DNA of 16,352 nt from an uncultured Aquificales bacterium. GTDB taxonomy: Bacteria > Thermosulfidibacterota > Thermosulfidibacteria > Thermosulfidibacterales > Thermosulfidibacteraceae. The DNA lies in the NCBI GenBank assembly GCA_964453345.1, contig CAYVOC010000031.1, forward strand, positions 1 to 16,352, given 5' to 3'. This document shows, piece after piece, positions 5 to 16,352 of this stretch; positions within the stretch are counted from its first letter, which is position 1; each line of letters starts with the position of its first letter. The notes below the pieces were generated by a model. The model did no database searches, was not told where the DNA came from, and worked only from the letters and a program-made list of their open reading frames with translations. The position numbers and the translations under genes are program-made.

Positions 5-727
5 TTATTTTTGCATAACCTTTATTATTCTTCTGCAGAATCCGGTTATTATCTTGGCTTCTCTGCGGCTCAGCTGAATCCTGGATAGAAGCCTCTTTAT
101 GTTTGTCATCCAGAGTTCTGTGTTGTGGTGGGGGACAAAGTTTATAGCCTCGCATGCCCTTCGAATGTAGTCATACATGATCTTCTGGTCTTCGAGGGTT
201 GCAAGTTCAGGGGTGGGTATGCTGGGTTTCAGGGCTTGCTGGTATATCTCATATAAACAGACGGCGACGGAGTGGGACAGGTTAAGGGATGTTGAATTGT
301 GGGTGGGTATGGTGATGGCTTCGTTGCACATGTAAAGTTCCTGATTGGTTAAACCCCACTTTTCGTTTCCGAACAGCAGTCCCACCCTGTTTTTGATGAG
401 CATGGATGCTATTCTGGGTGCCGCCTCTTTCAGGCTGCTGTGAACCTTCCTGTGGTGCCCGAGTCTTGCGGTGGTTCCTATAAGATAGTTGAGTCCCTTT
501 ACAGCATCGCTGAGGTTATCATATACCTTCATCCTCTGAAGAACGGGCAACCCTATTCTCGTTGCGGTTGTCTTCGCCCTTTCCCAGTCAAAGTTTATGG
601 GGTTTACGATTATGAGGTTTTCTACTCCGAAGTTTGCGCATGCCCTTGCCGATGATCCGACATTCTCCGGGATCCTTGGTTCAAGCAGAATGATGTAAAG
701 GTTCTTTAGGGGGGAATCACCAGCCAT
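5..727 (-). CDS. trmJ: TrmJ/LasT-family SPOUT RNA methyltransferase (tRNA 32 2'-O-methyltransferase-like)
   Basis: Motifs IILLEPRIPENVGSSARACANFG, GTTAR, LLFGNEKWGLTNQEL and SLNLSHSVAVCLYE. Start placed at ATG 727; the ORF track extends it to 760. Confidence 0.85.
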   Translation of the reverse strand: MAGDSPLKNLYIILLEPRIPENVGSSARACANFGVENLIIVNPINFDWERAKTTATRIGLPVLQRMKVYDNLSDAVKGLNYLIGTTARLGHHRKVHSSLKEAAPRIASMLIKNRVGLLFGNEKWGLTNQELYMCNEAITIPTHNSTSLNLSHSVAVCLYEIYQQALKPSIPTPELATLEDQKIMYDYIRRACEAINFVPHHNTELWMTNIKRLLSRIQLSRREAKIITGFCRRIIKVMQK

Positions 728-10795: not shown

Positions 10796-12109
10796 ATGGG
10801 TGAGAAGTTTTTCATACGGACCTTCGGCTGCCAGATGAACGAGCATGACTCCGAAAAGATTCGGGGACTTCTTGTGCATATGGGGATGGAAGAGGCGGAG
10901 AGTGAGCGGGAGGCGGATGTTGTAATTCTGAATACGTGCGCTGTCAGGGAAAAGCCGGTGCACAAGGTTTACAGCGAGCTTGGGCGGTTTAAGCGCTGGA
11001 AAGATAAAATATTTGCTGTTTGCGGTTGTGTCGCTCAGAAGGAGGGCAAGAGGCTTGTGGAGCGCATGCCCCATGTGAGCATAGTTATAGGCCCGCGGAA
11101 CATATACAGACTGCCTGAGGCCATAGAGAGGGCCAAGCAGGGCAAAAGGAGCATCTTCACGGAGCAGAATGGGCGGTGCCCCATAACCGATTTGAGGTAT
11201 CCTATAAAGAGGCGGAACCCCTACCGTGCCTATGTGACCATAATGGAGGGGTGCGACAACTTTTGCAGCTATTGCATAGTTCCCTTTGTCAGGGGCAGGG
11301 AGGTGAGCCGCCCCTGGCGGGAGATACTTGATGAGGTTAAGCGGCTTGCTGATGAGGGCTATAAAGAGGTGACCCTCTTAGGGCAGAATGTTAACTCCTA
11401 CGGGAAGGGCCTGGAGGATCCCATAGACTTTCCGGATCTGCTTTACAAGATACACGAGGTGGAGGGGATTGAGTGGATCAGGTTCATCACCTCCCATCCC
11501 AAGGATTTCTCTGAAAAGCTTATAGATGCGGTGGTAAGTCTTCCCAAGATCTGTGAATACATACACCTTCCCGCCCAGTCCGGATCCAACAGGATACTCT
11601 CTTTGATGAACAGAAGATATACAAGGGAGCAGTATCTTGGCATCATAGACAGGCTCAAGTCTTCCGGGAAGTATTTTGCCTTCACTTCGGATTTTATAGT
11701 GGGCTTTCCTACGGAGACCGAGGAGGACTTTGAGCAGACCCTCTCCCTGATAAGGGAGGTGGAGTATGAAGGGGTTTTTGCCTTCATGTATAACCCCCGG
11801 GAGTTTACGAGGGCCTACAGCTGGGAGGATGATGTCCCGCCTGAGGTAAAGAGGGAGAGGTTGAGGAGGCTGCTTTCCCTTCAGGATGAGATAACCGAGA
11901 AGCTGAGTTCCTCCTACGTGGGAAGGGTTGTTGATGTGCTTTTCGATGAATACAGGGATGGATGCCTTTATGGCAGGACGAGGACCTTCAAAATAGTAAA
12001 GGCCTCCGGTGACAAATCTCTGCTTGGGAATATAGTAAAAGTTAAGATAACAGAGGCCAGGATGTATGAGCTTAAAGGGGAAATCGTGCAAGGGGGAAAG
12101 GAAGGATGA
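10796..12109 (+). CDS. miaB: tRNA-2-methylthio-N6-dimethylallyladenosine synthase MiaB
   Basis: Motifs [19 protein letters not shown] and radical-SAM CDNFCSYC, plus LLGQNVNSY and a C-terminal TRAM domain. Confidence 0.95.
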
Positions 12110-12579
12110 TACGGATGAAGGTGGTTAAGGTTATTCTGGATCCAATTACAAACTCTCCCATTGTTATCCTTAAGGATATGGAGGAGAGGAGGCTTCTTCC
12201 CATCTGGATAGGTCTTTTTGAGGCAAGCGCCATAGCCATGAAGCTTGAGGATGTTACAACTCCGAGGCCCATGACCCACGATCTTATAGCCAACATCCTT
12301 GATAGCCTCAGGGCAAGTGTTGAGAGGGTGGTGGTGAACGATCTTGTGGAGAACACCTACTACGCCACGATATACCTTAACACCCCGTCGGGCATGGTGG
12401 AGGTGGATTCCAGGCCCAGCGACGCCATAGCAATAGCCCTGAGGACGGGTGCTCCCATATATGTTGAGGAGGTGGTGCTGGAGAGGGCCCAGAGCCTTGA
12501 GGAGGAGGACAGGGACAAGCTGCTCAAGGAGTGGCTTGAGCGTCTGAGCCCGGAGGATCTGGAGAAGTTCAGGGCTTGA
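12106..12579 (+). CDS. Bifunctional nuclease family protein (DUF151)
   Basis: Motifs [17 protein letters not shown] and [17 protein letters not shown] overlap with miaB. Confidence 0.92.
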
Positions 12580-13858
12580 GCCTTTTGTCTATAACCCTCT
12601 GGGCCTTCCCGGGTTTTCTGGGTATGGTGCCCTCTGGCACTAACTCCAGATCTACCCTGAAACCCAGAAAGTCGTATAGATGGGTTGCAAGATGCTCCTT
12701 TAATTCTCCGTTTGCAACTCTGCTTTTGTCCTTTATTTCAAGTATCACCTTTACGTAGGTTTTGCCCTTCCTTTCGTCCAGAATAATCTGGTATTCGTTG
12801 CCTACTTCCTTGTGGCGCATGAGGATGGCCTCTATCTGGGAGGGGTAAAAGTTCACACCCTTGACCTTCAACATGTCGTCGGTGCGTCCCTTTATCCTGG
12901 CTACCCTGAGCATGGTTCTTCCGCAGTCGCATCTTTCCCTTGAGACTATGCTTGTTATGTCCCTGGTTCTGTATCTTATGAGGGGGAGCCCCTCCCTGGT
13001 AAGGGTGGTCACCACCATCTCCCCTTCCTGACCGTCTTCCACGGGTTTTCCGGTTTCAGGATCCACTATTTCCACTATGTAGTGGTCCTCCCAGACGTGT
13101 ATCCCGCACTTGTGCTGGCAGTCTATCCCGAGGCCCACACCTCCCGTTTCCGTCATTCCTATGATGTCGTAGGAGTCTATCCCCATCTCCCTTTCTATTC
13201 TGGCCCTCATCTCGTCCGACCAGACCTCGGCTCCGAATATGCCTATGCGCAGATCTGTTTCTGAAAAGTCAAAGTTCTCTTCTTTAGCCACCTCTATGAG
13301 CCTGAGGGGATAGGAGGCGATGGCGCATATAACGGTTGTTCCCATCTCCTTCATGAGCTTCAGCTGCAGCATGGATCTACCCGCCCCTATAGGAACGATC
13401 ATGGCGCCTATTCTCTCGCATCCGTAGTGGAAGCCAAAGCCACCGTTGAACAGACCGAAGGAAGGGGTTATCTGCACCACATCTCTACTTGTGACGCCCG
13501 CTGCGGTGAGGCACCTTGCCATTATCTCGGCCCACTGCTCCACATCGTTTCTCGTGTAGAAGTTCACGATGGGGGTTCCCGTGGTTCCCGAGGACATGTG
13601 AAAGCGAACGAAGCTGTCCTTGGGGGCGCAGGTGTATGCGAAGGGATACCCCTCTCTGAGATCTTCCTTTGTCATAAAGGGCAGCTGCTGCAGATCTTCC
13701 AAGGTCTTTATATCCTCTGGTTCCGGCCTTCCAAGCTTCTCCCAGTAGAAGGCGTTGTTCTCCTTTATGTGCCTTATGGTGTCTCTCAACCTTTCTAACT
13801 GCACTCTCTCCAGTTCTTCTCTGTCCATTCCCTCAAGCCTTGGCTGATACATGGGCAT
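12569..13858 (-). CDS. paaK: Phenylacetate-CoA ligase family protein
   Basis: Motifs [38 protein letters not shown] and [20 protein letters not shown]. Confidence 0.9.
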
Positions 13859-13860
13859 GG

Positions 13861-14346
13861 CTACGCCTCCGTATAACCGATTTCAAGGGCTTTTATGTTG
13901 CTATCGTTGTTTTTGCCAAGGTGTTCGAGGCTCTTTAGGCCTTCGTGCAGATCGATGCCAAGATGCTTTAGAATTGCGCCAACTGCCACCACATTCATTA
14001 GCTTGGGATGCACATCTTTCTTCTCGAGGATTTTTTTCAGGTCAACGGTTGGTTTTTCCATCCCGTAGGCCACGGTAAAGGTCTTTCTGTTGAGGTAGGG
14101 TTCAACCTTGCCGGACTCATCAGGGTGCAGGATCACCGCAACGTCCGCTTCACCGTAGCAGATGAGGGGAGAGTGGTAGTTGCCTGTCTTGAGGAAGGCA
14201 AGAACGCTTCCTCCCCTTGTGGCCATTCCGTGGTTCTCTGTGGATATGACGGGGACCCCGAGTCTGGTCAGGGTTATCCCTATAAGTCTTGTGGCAAGAA
14301 CTATGCCCTGCCCCCCGACTCCCGCAAAGACCATCCTTTTGTTCAT
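13861..14346 (-). CDS. iorB: Indolepyruvate:ferredoxin oxidoreductase beta-subunit-like protein (POR gamma family), short form
   Basis: Motifs AGVGGQGIVL, TENHGMATRGGSV, SPLI..GEAD and NIKALEIG. Adjacent to paaK. Confidence 0.8.
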   Translation of the reverse strand: MNKRMVFAGVGGQGIVLATRLIGITLTRLGVPVISTENHGMATRGGSVLAFLKTGNYHSPLICYGEADVAVILHPDESGKVEPYLNRKTFTVAYGMEKPTVDLKKILEKKDVHPKLMNVVAVGAILKHLGIDLHEGLKSLEHLGKNNDSNIKALEIGYTEA

Positions 14347-14383: not shown

Positions 14384-15376
14384 TCACCTTTCCGCTATTC
14401 TCTCCTTCACCTTGACGCCGAAGTGTCTCCCGGCTTCGGTTACGTAAGCGAGGATCTTATCCCCTTCTTTAAGCTTCACCACCGATATGGGTGAACCGTC
14501 CGGAGATGTCAGCCTTATGGTTTCTGCATTTTGAAGGATCAGGCTCCCTTCCTTGTCCTGGTATCTGGCCCTCACAATTAGCAGGGGCCTGACTTCAGTT
14601 TTGTTTCTCCCGACAATAGCCTCCCTTGCCTCTCCGTTGCTGTTTACCACAAGGACCTTTTCCCCTGTTGCAAGTTCCGAAAGATACTTGGTTCTGTTGC
14701 CCGGGCACAGTATATAGGCGTGTATCCCCCCCGCATTGACCCTGAAGGGTCTGGGAGCCACGTATGGGTTTTCAACGCTTTCGGAGTGAACCAGAAGGAA
14801 GAAGTCGCTTCTGTCTCCCACCAGCATGCCTTCACCGATGCTCATGAGTTCCGTTGTGTCGATGCACGCTCTGTAGCCCATGCCTGCCGGTTTCACGTCA
14901 ACTACCTCTGCCTCAACCAGTTGCAGTTTTTCGGGCCTGCGCTTGATGATGTTTCCCACCTCCTTAACGGTGGAGGGATTGCTGGTTTCTAAAAGAACTC
15001 CCCTTGTGCCCACCTCGAGGACTCCGGCCGCCATTTCGGCCTCTTCGGGTGTTCTGACCATTGCGATGATGTTCTCGCTCTGGGCCACCAAGTTTTCTAA
15101 GGGGATGATCTTCCAGTCTTCTGCATCCACCACAACCAGTCCCCTTTTGGATAGCTCAAGGGCCTTTGTTTCGTCTTCCTTGGAGGATATCTTCACGAAG
15201 AAGACATCCCTTTCCGGAACAATGTCTCCATCCTTCGATACCACCTGCACTATCCCAAGCTCCTTCACCTTGGGTGCGTATCCCTCCTCAACCATTATGG
15301 CGTCGGCGCCGGCTTCCAGGGCGGAGGTGACGATCTTCTTGTTCCAGGGGATGGCCTTCACCCAGAAAAGCTTCAT
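14384..15376 (-). CDS. 3-dehydroquinate synthase II (archaeal type, AroB'/MJ1249 family)
   Basis: Motifs [48 protein letters not shown] and GRHFG. Confidence 0.95.
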
Positions 15377-16167
15377 TTCAGCACCTCCAGGGCTTCTTCA
15401 ATGGATGCACCCTCGTGGACTATCATGGCTATGGCTTTGACCATAGCCGTGGGGTTTTCGTGCTGGAAGACGTTTCTTCCAATGGAGACGCCTGCTGCAC
15501 CTGCCTCCATTGCCCCCTTGACCATTCTAAGCACATCTTCAGCGGTATCCATCTTCTCCCCGCCCGCTATGACGACAGGTATGGGGCATCCTTCGGTGAC
15601 TTCCCTGAAGCTCTCCGGGTCTCCCGTGTATGGGACCTTGACGAGATCGGCCCCCAGCTCTGCTCCAACCCTTGCAGCATGCTTCACAACCGAGGGATCG
15701 TATTGATTACGGATCTTGGGGCCTCTGGCATACACCATGGCTAATAGCGGCATTCCCCACTCTAAGCACTTGGCCGATATTTCTCCGAAGTCCTTGAGCA
15801 TGGTGGGCTCGTCTTCGGCGCCTATGTTCACGTGTATGGAGACAGCATCCGCCCCAAGCTTTATGGCCTCCTCAACCGTGCAGACAAGCACCTTGTTGTT
15901 GGGGGTTGGAGAGAGGCATGTGCTTGCGGAAAGGTGTATTATCAAGCCTATGTCCTTGCCCCTTCTTCTGTGGCCTGCAGGGACTATGCCCTTGTGGATT
16001 ACTATGGCGTCGGCTCCTCCGTCGGCTATCTTTCCTATGGTTTCCTTCATGTTGGTGAGACCCCTTATGGGTCCCACGGTGATGCCGTGGTCCATGGGCA
16101 CAATGACTGTTGTGCCCTTCTCCCTGTTCATGATCCTCTCAAGCCTTATCTCCTTGCCAACGATCAT
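15373..16167 (-). CDS. 2-amino-3,7-dideoxy-D-threo-hept-6-ulosonate (ADH) synthase, DhnA-type class I aldolase (AroA'/MJ0400 family)
   Basis: Motifs [42 protein letters not shown] and GRNVFQ. Translationally coupled to DHQ synthase II; AGGAGG RBS before ATG 16167. Confidence 0.9.
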
Positions 16168-16198
16168 CTTCCACCCTCCTTCAGAAGATTTTTGTAAT

Positions 16199-16237
16199 AA
16201 AAAAGGGGCCATGGAAGCCTTTTGCTCCCATGGCCCC
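16199..16237 (-). terminator. Intrinsic terminator (attenuator) in the leader of the aro operon
   Basis: mRNA GGGGCCAUGGGAGC-AAAAG-GCUUCCAUGGCCCC-UUUUUU: a 14-bp stem with one G-U pair and six U, 31 nt upstream of the ADH synthase ATG. Confidence 0.9.
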
Positions 16238-16297
16238 TGATCTATGGGCTGGAGGGCCATGGGGGGCTTGGTGCCCGCCCATGGCCCCTGCCTTCAC

Positions 16298-16352
16298 CTA
16301 CAGCGGTGCCTGGACGGGCACCCTGCTAAAGTACCACCAAAAGTAAAAGTAG
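16298..16352 (-). CDS. Aromatic amino acid leader peptide, 5'-truncated by the window edge (...YFYFWWYFSRVPVQAPL*)
   Basis: Minus strand reads TAC TTT TAC TTT TGG TGG TAC TTT AGC AGG GTG CCC GTC CAG GCA CCG CTG TAG. The start codon lies outside the window. Confidence 0.8.
   Translation of the reverse strand, partial: YFYFWWYFSRVPVQAPL

What the first reader, a model, noticed from the sequence alone, without database searches (positions are those of the whole stretch)
16298..16352. Unannotated leader peptide with eight consecutive aromatic codons (YFYFWWYF): a combined Phe/Tyr/Trp sensor
Seen: the minus strand from 16351 reads Y-F-Y-F-W-W-Y-F-S-R-V-P-V-Q-A-P-L-stop (TAG 16300-16298), ending about 130 nt upstream of the ADH synthase gene, and the ORF track misses it. 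Established: attenuator leaders such as trpL, pheL and hisL carry runs of codons for the pathway end product. Inference: one leader reads all three aromatic aminoacyl-tRNA pools, which suits the first steps of the common aromatic pathway. A bacterial-style translational attenuator on the archaeal-type AroA'/AroB' route is not a textbook arrangement. I cannot check the literature from here, and the leader's start is beyond the window.
Basis: partly seen in the sequence, partly recalled or inferred. Interest (0 to 1): 0.9.

Follow-up and report, generated by a model that had tools for sequence, protein, structure and literature searches.

The report
Aromatic leader-peptide attenuator before aroA'
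The run of Phe/Tyr/Trp codons at the contig end is the tail of a small leader gene that most likely lets stalled ribosomes switch on the first two genes of aromatic amino-acid synthesis, a classical bacterial control device seen here on the "archaeal-type" pathway entry.

Summary
The minus strand 16351-16298 reads YFYFWWYFSRVPVQAPL-stop. It is the only one of 2,314,297 stop-free 8-codon windows in this genome that is 8/8 aromatic.

The window is a whole contig, so the start is missing. A 99.2% identical metagenome contig (L113) supplies it: a 35-codon ORF, MKELSRTYTGQSRTLQGFYFYFWWYFSRVPVQAPL, with nine aromatic codons in a row. It is not the end of a long protein.

Between the ORF and aroA' (ADH synthase) lie an intrinsic terminator and mutually exclusive hairpins that covary in relatives. 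Masked folding predicts read-through when a ribosome sits on aromatic codons and termination once it has passed them.

All 17 of 17 same-order genomes carry such a leader, as do Desulfobacterota and Spirochaetota loci; 0 of 28 archaeal loci do. The same RNA scaffold carries Leu codons before leuA and Trp codons before trpE.

This is a classical mechanism: a new member of a known kind. The nearest precedent is C. glutamicum aroR-aroF. This scan has already noted the same device on other DNA (e1-4971669). I found no paper describing it. There are no expression data.

The parts
16298..16352 (-). 3' part of the leader ORF: last base of a Phe codon, eight aromatic codons, SRVPVQAPL, stop TAG 16300-16298. 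The 5' part (17 codons plus two bases) lies in a 243-nt assembly gap.
   Evidence: full ORF in L113 797-904; gap defined
16328..16351 (-). Sensor codons Y F Y F W W Y F (TAC TTT TAC TTT TGG TGG TAC TTT)
   Evidence: unique in the genome; all three residue types kept in 18 of 18 same-order leaders
16308..16322 (-). Segment 1 (GGUGCCCGUCCAGGC), inside the ORF just after the aromatic run. It pairs with segment 2.
   Evidence: covariation of the 1:2 helix
16301..16325 (-). Local hairpin at the ORF's 3' end (CAGGGUGCC / GGCACCGCUG, -13.8 kcal/mol). It competes for segment 1; its role is unclear (possibly a pause site or a damper).
16270..16288 (-). Segment 2 (GGGGCCAUGGGCGGGCACC). It pairs with segment 1 or with segment 3.
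16253..16267 (-). Segment 3 (GCCCCCCAUGGCCCU). It pairs with segment 2 (-32 to -36 kcal/mol) or with segment 4 (antiterminator, -23.4).
16224..16237 (-). Segment 4 (GGGGCCAUGGGAGC), the 5' arm of the terminator. It pairs alternatively with segment 3.
16199..16218 (-). Segment 5 (GCUUCCAUGGCCCC) plus U6. With segment 4 it forms the intrinsic terminator.
   Evidence: terminator scan 16238-16204 plus T run; -29 to -31 kcal/mol
16174..16179 (-). Shine-Dalgarno GGAGGG of aroA', 6 nt before the ATG at 16167
   Evidence: read
15373..16167 (-). aroA' (2-amino-3,7-dideoxy-D-threo-hept-6-ulosonate synthase)
   Evidence: TIGR01949 387.4 bits (cut-off 299.45); NF005556 425.6 bits
14384..15376 (-). aroB' (3-dehydroquinate synthase II). 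Its start overlaps the end of aroA' by 4 nt.
   Evidence: NF002627 465 bits (cut-off 392); PF01959
13861..14346 (-). 2-oxoacid:ferredoxin oxidoreductase gamma / IorB-like gene, probably in the same operon
   Evidence: PF01558 77 bits; IorB models below their cut-offs
12569..13858 (-). Phenylacetate-CoA-ligase-like gene, the last gene on this strand before a convergent gene
   Evidence: PaaK models 414-427 bits, below their cut-offs; ORF map

Best explanation
This is the 3' end of the leader ORF of a ribosome-mediated transcription attenuator that controls aroA'-aroB' and probably the two genes behind them. The transcript carries five pairing segments. Segment 1 lies inside the ORF, right after nine consecutive Phe/Tyr/Trp codons. 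Segments 2 to 5 follow the stop codon. Two sets of pairings exclude each other: 1:2 with 3:4 (no terminator), or 2:3 with 4:5 (terminator plus U6). When charged Phe-, Tyr- or Trp-tRNA is scarce, the ribosome waits on the aromatic run and leaves segment 1 free. Segment 1 then captures segment 2, segment 3 captures segment 4, and RNA polymerase reads into aroA'. When all three are plentiful, the ribosome runs over segment 1 to the stop. Segments 2:3 and 4:5 form and transcription ends at 16199-16204. Shown here: the sequence, its uniqueness, the complete ORF in a conspecific contig, the terminator, conservation and covariation of both pairing sets, and the reuse of one scaffold with other sensor codons. 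Inferred: that ribosome position selects the fold, that the output is transcriptional, and that each of the three amino acids counts.
For: (1) Eight aromatic codons in the window, nine in L113, and the only 8/8 window of 2,314,297 in the genome. (2) A complete 35-codon ORF with an in-frame ATG in L113, which is 99.2% identical over 2,214 nt to the window and over 606 nt to contig C55. In runs X2 and X3, a 294-nt unitig covers L113 586-879 with 0 differences. (3) Terminator at 16238-16204 plus a T run. Hairpin energies are 2:3 -32 to -36, 3:4 -23.4 and 4:5 -29 to -31 kcal/mol. (4) Masked MFE on L113, with the transcript cut at the end of segment 4: with the A site on codons 18-25 (eight of the nine aromatic codons) the fold is 1:2 plus 3:4; with the A site on codon 26 or later, including the stop, it is 2:3. 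The result is the same at 37, 55 and 70 C; at 80 C the switch moves by one codon. (5) Covariation in 15 MAFFT-aligned sequences. The antiterminator set has 87.4% of cells paired, 9 of 26 pairs changed on both sides, and 0 of 500 shuffles reach this. The terminator set has 89.7%, 12 of 29, and 1 of 500. One position changes in step in all four segments (A-U 9, G-C 5). (6) 17 of 17 same-order genomes have a small ORF with at least 6 of 8 aromatic residues 100-134 nt upstream of aroA'. In 18 of 18 (with L113) the aromatic frame has an ATG, against 2 of 18 for each other frame, and F, Y and W are all present. (7) Three relatives of family f2 have a shorter design in which hairpin 2:3 is itself followed by the U tract and segment 1 is its direct competitor. 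This gives the same logic. (8) Internal control: covariance model R1, built from the aro attenuators, finds three sense-strand sites in this genome: aro (103.5 bits), leuA leader (64.9) and trpE leader (55.5). The three other listed matches lie on the opposite strand of these same sites. Across the order the extra sites carry Leu runs before leuA and WWW(W) before trpE or an ABC permease. The sensor codons therefore track the regulated pathway.
Against: There are no expression data of any kind. The leader's start is not in the window or its assembly; it is taken from a conspecific contig. In the same runs a minor variant replaces L113 628-849 with 1,053 other letters (depth 23.8 against 116.6), so not every strain need have this N-terminus. 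No consensus promoter was found by the scan (0 sites), and no clear Shine-Dalgarno precedes the leader ATG. Initiation is inferred from a conserved TTGACA and its spacing. The full-length naked RNA folds into the terminator state. The antiterminator wins only at the decision point, so the switch depends on kinetics that I cannot compute. The ribosome footprint (A site +13 nt) is an assumption. The local hairpin 16325-16301 competes for segment 1 and is not explained. In C. glutamicum aroR, Tyr supply had no effect, so a three-way sensor cannot be assumed.
Confidence: 0.85

Rival explanations
1. The leader is translated and senses aromatic supply, but the output is not transcription termination. 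Stalling might instead change mRNA stability, translation of aroA' by coupling or reinitiation, or Rho access.
For: Two of three f2 relatives (L016, L018) have no run of five U after the hairpin. The leader ATG in L113 lies 1 nt after the stop of the upstream oxidoreductase gene, so coupling to upstream translation is possible.
Against: In the window a 15-bp hairpin is followed directly by U6. The terminator helix covaries in 15 sequences. The aroA' Shine-Dalgarno at 16179-16174 lies outside segments 1-5.
Confidence: 0.07
2. The small ORF encodes a functional aromatic-rich micro-protein (for example a membrane peptide), and the hairpins are an ordinary terminator of that gene.
For: The ORF is conserved in position and is hydrophobic in its core.
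Against: Outside the aromatic run the peptides share no sequence or length (23-45 residues). Conservation after the run is at the RNA level, with pairing and compensatory changes. The same scaffold carries Leu or Trp runs before leuA and trpE. A gene terminator would not need a conserved competing helix.
Confidence: 0.03
3. The RNA is a ligand- or protein-binding switch (of the riboswitch, T-box or TRAP kind), and the aromatic reading frame is incidental.
For: Strong, conserved structure.
Against: No Rfam family, T-box included, matches above its threshold. The structure is only a chain of simple competing hairpins. The aromatic frame is unique in the genome and keeps an ATG in 18 of 18 sequences, while the order of F, Y and W varies freely.
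Confidence: 0.03

Closest known systems
Corynebacterium glutamicum aroR leader peptide / aroF attenuator (Neshat et al. 2014). I saw only the summary passage in PMC11802643, not the original paper.
   Same: A leader peptide with mixed aromatic codons placed before the first enzyme of the common aromatic pathway. Ribosome stalling raises transcription.
   Different: aroR carries Phe-Tyr-Phe with no Trp, and precedes a DAHP synthase. Here there are nine codons of all three kinds before ADH synthase, in a Thermosulfidibacter-like lineage. Homology could not be tested because no aroR sequence was in hand.
E. coli pheL-pheA and trpL-trpEDCBA attenuators (Rfam Phe_leader, Trp_leader; model names recalled)
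   Same: A short ORF with cognate codons, a terminator and a competing antiterminator; read-out of charged tRNA by the ribosome (passage in PMC11802643).
   Different: Those have one amino acid each and four segments, with the stalled ribosome covering segment 1 (textbook knowledge). Here there are five segments, and the stalled ribosome leaves segment 1 free. The naked RNA at the decision point is therefore predicted to be in the ON state. No Rfam leader model matches.
The leuA and trpE attenuators of this same genome (C8 about 12018-12190; C38 about 299-450)
   Same: The same RNA scaffold, hit by model R1 at 64.9 and 55.5 bits. Segment 1 lies at the ORF's 3' end, followed by two hairpins and a U tract.
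   Different: The sensor codons are Leu (LSLLNLLLL) or Trp (WWW) instead of the F/Y/W mix.
T-box leaders of aromatic genes in Firmicutes (Panina et al. 2003, seen only as a reference in PMC1262725)
   Same: A transcription attenuator that responds to tRNA charging for aromatic amino acids.
   Different: T-boxes bind uncharged tRNA directly and need no translation. No T-box match was found here.

Membership tests
Ribosome-mediated (leader-peptide) transcription attenuator | Short translatable ORF with start and stop just upstream of a biosynthetic operon | tested here: met
   The stop is in the window. The start and the whole 35-codon ORF are in the conspecific contig L113. An in-frame ATG is present in 18 of 18 same-order sequences.
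Ribosome-mediated (leader-peptide) transcription attenuator | Run of codons for the end product(s) of the regulated pathway | tested here: met
   Nine consecutive F/Y/W codons before aroA'-aroB'; 1 of 2,314,297 windows.
Ribosome-mediated (leader-peptide) transcription attenuator | Intrinsic terminator between the leader and the first structural gene | tested here: met
   15-bp stem 16238-16204 plus a T run; the helix covaries.
Ribosome-mediated (leader-peptide) transcription attenuator | Mutually exclusive antiterminator whose formation depends on where the ribosome sits | tested here: met
   Alternative helices 1:2 and 3:4, with 9 of 26 pairs changed on both sides. Masked folding switches at the end of the aromatic run. 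This is in silico only.
Ribosome-mediated (leader-peptide) transcription attenuator | Read-through rises when the cognate amino acid or charged tRNA is limiting | not testable with these tools
   No RNA run holds the locus. Culture experiments are needed.
Rfam Phe_leader / Trp_leader / other curated leader families | Match to the family covariance model at its gathering score | tested here: not met
   No leader family appears among matches up to E = 10 in window 15900-16352, or up to E = 0.1 in L113, L080, L061, L065 and L002.
T-box riboswitch | Match to the T-box model (specifier loop, T-box sequence) | tested here: not met
   No T-box match.
aroR-type aromatic leader (C. glutamicum) | Mixed aromatic codons in a leader before the first common-pathway enzyme | tested here: met
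   The enzyme here is ADH synthase, not DAHP synthase, and Trp codons are present as well.
aroR-type aromatic leader (C. glutamicum) | Sequence or structure homology to aroR | not tested

The most novel reading that the evidence does not exclude
A deep-branching thermophilic order (Thermosulfidibacter-like) builds its amino-acid attenuators from one reusable five-segment RNA scaffold, and only the sensor codons are exchanged: Leu for leuA, Trp for trpE and for an ABC permease, and a Phe/Tyr/Trp mix for aroA'. Its logic is inverted relative to E. coli: untranslated or stalled means ON, and a passing ribosome means OFF. The mixed leader acts as a true three-input OR gate on the entry to the aromatic pathway. 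The aro version has travelled with aroA'-aroB' between bacterial phyla (Desulfobacterota share a recognisably similar RNA).
Probability: 0.3. Interest if true: 0.65.

Novelty: new member of a known kind. Interest (0 to 1): 0.5.

Why it matters
The finding gives a sequence-level regulatory link between the ADH-synthase/DHQ-synthase-II route and aromatic amino-acid supply in bacteria, where the role of these "archaeal" genes has mostly been inferred from homology.

It defines an unannotated cis-regulatory RNA. The RNA is conserved in all 18 genomes of an order and is recognisable in Desulfobacterales. It could be curated as an RNA family and used to annotate operons.

It is also a natural example of one leader reading three tRNA pools. 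That makes the question "does each codon type count?" directly testable in culturable carriers such as Desulfovibrio or Pseudodesulfovibrio.

The three-member scaffold (aro, leu, trp) in one small genome is a clean natural codon-swap experiment.

Tried and rejected
The missing 5' end was not in the assembly: the last 15-55 bases of C31 occur nowhere else in the genome.

Rfam gave only sub-threshold chance matches.

Seven of the nine literature searches bore on this question (one search was mis-specified and useless). None found a paper on a leader before ADH synthase/aroA', or on leader peptides in Aquificae or Thermosulfidibacter. Rodionov 2004 (PMC545781) and Naville 2010 (PMC2965389) contain none of the terms searched. 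Seliverstov 2005 (PMC1262725) reports no Phe or Tyr RNA elements in Actinobacteria (passage). Lopatovskaya et al. 2010 (Mol Biol 44:128) was seen only as a reference, and Price et al. 2011 (J Bacteriol) is not held. Neither could be read, and either might mention such leaders. Supplements were not consulted.

No RNA holder was listed for the locus.

The promoter scan found no consensus promoter.

pheA and tyrA of this genome have no leader directly upstream.

A second aromatic-looking frame (C41, FYFYFY) has no start codon and was dropped as noise.

My first automatic terminator picker mis-assigned L013, L015, L017 and L019 and found no U5 in L016 and L018. Those rows are not used as evidence.

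A Leu/Val-rich frame (LLLLLVVL-stop) overlaps the run in the window. It has no start codon in L113, and an ATG in only 2 of 18 sequences.

Full report
**Observation.** The minus strand of the window from 16351 reads TAC TTT TAC TTT TGG TGG TAC TTT AGC AGG GTG CCC GTC CAG GCA CCG CTG TAG. This translates as YFYFWWYFSRVPVQAPL-stop, with the stop at 16300-16298. The stop lies 130 nt before the ATG at 16167 of a gene that passes the equivalog model for ADH synthase (TIGR01949, 387.4 bits against a cut-off of 299.45). The next gene is DHQ synthase II (NF002627, 465 bits against 392).

The run is not a chance product of composition. Of 2,314,297 stop-free 8-codon windows in all six frames of the 1.5-Mb genome, exactly one is 8/8 aromatic, and it is this one. 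The leader RNA folds far better than its shuffles (z = -7.0).

**Where the start is.** The window is the whole of contig C31, and the assembly holds no continuation. An exact-pattern scan of metagenome contigs found one record, L113. L113 is 99.2% identical to C31 14139-16352 and, at its other end, 99.2% identical to the first 606 bases of contig C55. The MAG therefore has a 243-nt gap exactly here.

In L113 the frame opens with ATG at 797 and reads MKELSRTYTGQSRTLQGFYFYFWWYFSRVPVQAPL (35 codons). An alternative ATG at 779 would give 41 codons. The run is thus nine aromatic codons long, and the ORF is short. It is not the end of the upstream protein, a 2-oxoacid:ferredoxin oxidoreductase beta subunit whose stop lies 1 nt before the ATG.

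Contigs of four public DNA runs were laid on L113. In two runs that may be the window's source, a 294-nt unitig covers L113 586-879 without a difference, and the next unitig starts at 850, which is the window's last base. A minor variant (depth 23.8 against 116.6) replaces 628-849 with 1,053 other letters. This branch explains the contig break.

**Anatomy.** After the aromatic run come five pairing segments (window coordinates, minus strand):
- Segment 1: 16322-16308, inside the ORF.
- Segment 2: 16288-16270.
- Segment 3: 16267-16253.
- Segment 4: 16237-16224.
- Segment 5: 16218-16205, followed by U6 at 16204-16199.

Helix 4:5 is an intrinsic terminator by the scan tool. Segments 2 and 4 share GGGGCCAUGGG, and segments 3 and 5 share CCAUGGCCC. 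Segment 3 can therefore pair with 2 (-32 to -36 kcal/mol) or with 4 (-23.4). Segment 1 is complementary to segment 2 over 15 pairs, with one G-U and one bulge. A small hairpin (16325-16301, -13.8) also uses part of segment 1. I cannot assign it a role.

**How it most likely works.** I folded the L113 transcript cut at the end of segment 4, the moment before the terminator can form, with a ribosome-sized stretch made unpairable.
- With the A site on any of codons 18-25 (eight of the nine aromatic codons), the best fold is 1:2 plus 3:4, and the terminator arm is sequestered.
- With the A site on codon 26, on later codons or on the stop, the fold is 2:3 and the terminator arm is free.

The result is the same at 37, 55 and 70 C, and shifts by one codon at 80 C. 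This is the correct regulatory sense: scarcity gives read-through.

The design differs from the four-segment E. coli trp scheme, as I know it from the textbook account. Here the stalled ribosome does not cover segment 1 but leaves it free, and a ribosome that passes covers it. The untranslated RNA at the decision point is therefore predicted to be ON. The footprint size and the kinetic competition are assumptions, and the full-length naked RNA prefers the terminator state.

**Comparative evidence.** A protein search of 41 genomes found aroA' in all 17 other genomes of the same order (3 families, 7 genera). All 17 have a small ORF with at least 6 of 8 aromatic residues that ends 100-134 nt before aroA'. 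Three more distant loci (63-69% identical aroA') have none.

In 18 of 18 sequences (with L113) the aromatic frame has an in-frame ATG, against 2 of 18 for each of the other two frames. Every leader holds F, Y and W (F 1-4, Y 2-6, W 1-4). Their order varies, and the N-terminal parts are unrelated.

On a MAFFT alignment of 15 five-segment sequences, both pairing sets are supported:
- Antiterminator set: 87.4% of cells paired, 9 of 26 pairs with changes on both sides, 0 of 500 shuffles as high.
- Terminator set: 89.7% of cells paired, 12 of 29 pairs, 1 of 500 shuffles.

These shuffle controls ignore relatedness, and the structures were derived from member sequences, so they overstate the support. 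The slid controls fall to 28-60% paired. One position changes in step in all four segments (A-U in 9 sequences, G-C in 5).

The three f2 genomes were left out of these alignments because they have a shorter design. In them hairpin 2:3 is itself followed by the U-rich tract, with segment 1 as its competitor. The logic is the same.

**Wider distribution.** Among the 80 best aroA' loci from one genome per species, a leader of this kind (at least 6 of 8 aromatic, in-frame start, stop 30-220 nt upstream) is present in 34:

| Group (grouped by me from record titles) | Loci with leader |
|---|---|
| Thermosulfidibacter-like | 10 of 10 |
| Desulfobacterales-type | 17 of 17 |
| Desulfovibrio / Pseudodesulfovibrio | 4 of 5 |
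| Spirochaetota | 2 of 3 |
| Unclassified | 1 of 6 |
| Smithella | 0 of 3 |
| Desulfurobacteriaceae / Thermovibrio | 0 of 8 |
| Archaea | 0 of 28 |

**An internal control.** A covariance model (R1) built from the 15 aro attenuators, without the aromatic codons apart from the last one or two at the 5' end of each row, finds three sense-strand sites in the window's genome: aro (103.5 bits), a site before leuA (64.9) and a site before trpE (55.5). The three other listed matches are weaker opposite-strand echoes of these sites. The leuA leader reads MVFVKIYKNLSLLNLLLLRCARPGP, and the trpE leader ends in CWWWQAL.

R1 hits all 18 of 18 genomes of the order. Of the further sites, I inspected the 14 for which DNA was fetched. 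They carry Leu runs before leuA, W3-4 runs before trpE, or W3-4 runs before a LivH-like ABC permease. One scaffold with sensor codons that follow the regulated pathway is the strongest argument that the aromatic codons are the sensor.

R1 also hits, on the sense strand just upstream of aroA', 17 of 70 loci that were not in the model: the Desulfobacterales-type loci plus L100. It does not hit the Desulfovibrio loci L078, L080 and L083, or the two spirochaete loci.

**Initiation.** A perfect TTGACA precedes the leader in L113 and in 16 of 17 relatives. In 16 of these 17 sequences an in-frame ATG lies 28-34 nt after it. It is the first such ATG in 11; in 5 it is a later one, by my hand count. This suggests a transcript that starts at or next to the ATG. 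The consensus scan reports no promoter, so this remains an inference.

**Comparison with what is known.** The kind is classical. The closest precedent I could document is the C. glutamicum aroR leader (Phe-Tyr-Phe) before aroF. It responds to Phe and not to Tyr (passage in PMC11802643; the original paper was not seen). No Rfam model matches. Eight usable full-text searches found no description of a leader before ADH synthase or in this lineage. Two possibly relevant papers could not be read.

This scan has already noted the same device on other DNA. Note e1-4971669 describes an aromatic leader before aroA'-pheA, and several notes describe aromatic leaders before DAHP synthase. Those notes are unchecked and are not counted as evidence.

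**Verdict.** This is a real, conserved and so far uncurated leader-peptide attenuator whose sensor is a Phe/Tyr/Trp mix. It is a new member of a known kind, not a new principle. Still open are expression, the kinetic step, which of the three amino acids count, and the exact start.

Noticed in passing
G000 contig C8, about 12018-12190 (+); locus L002/L117: Leu-codon leader (MVFVKIYKNLSLLNLLLLRCARPGP) with Shine-Dalgarno, two hairpins and a terminator directly before leuA. It uses the same scaffold as the aro attenuator (R1 64.9 bits).
   Followed up: partly
G000 contig C38, about 299-450 (+); locus L118: Trp leader ending CWWWQAL-stop, just after a tRNA gene and before trpE (ATG 466), trpG and trpD. 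R1 scores 55.5 bits. The leader's start codon is uncertain (possibly GTG).
   Followed up: partly
Loci L136 (G011), L137 (G013), L138 (G009), L148 (G015): W3-4 leaders on the same scaffold sit before a LivH-like ABC permease instead of trpE. This suggests a Trp-starvation-induced amino-acid uptake system in these relatives.
   Followed up: no
G000 contig C55 1-2957 (reverse strand; L150) together with window 12569-14346: The leader-aroA'-aroB' unit is embedded in a cluster. Upstream are an aminotransferase and 2-oxoacid:ferredoxin oxidoreductase alpha and beta genes; downstream are an oxidoreductase gamma/IorB-like gene and a phenylacetate-CoA-ligase-like gene. From memory of the methanogen aryl-acid route, this looks like a salvage path from aryl acids to aromatic amino acids, placed beside the de novo entry genes.
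   Followed up: partly
L113 628-849 (the assembly gap next to window 16352): In runs X2 and X3 a minor variant replaces these 222 bases (end of the oxidoreductase gene, the TTGACA and the leader's N-terminus) with about 1,053 other letters. The aromatic run stays in an open frame. This branch is why the contig ends inside the leader.
   Followed up: partly
L113 761-797 and the relatives: The conserved spacing from TTGACA to the leader ATG (28-34 nt) suggests leaderless leader-peptide mRNAs in this order. The leuA leader of the same genome, in contrast, has a clear Shine-Dalgarno.
   Followed up: partly
Loci L047, L056-L063, L070-L077, L094 (Desulfobacterales-type): Their leaders end in a shared ...GLPG(V/C)R motif. 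It corresponds to segment 1 of the RNA (GGCCUGCC-like) and also appears in family f3 of the window's order (…GLPKRSPGL). Peptide 'conservation' here reflects RNA pairing, and may point to common descent or transfer of the attenuator together with aroA'.
   Followed up: partly
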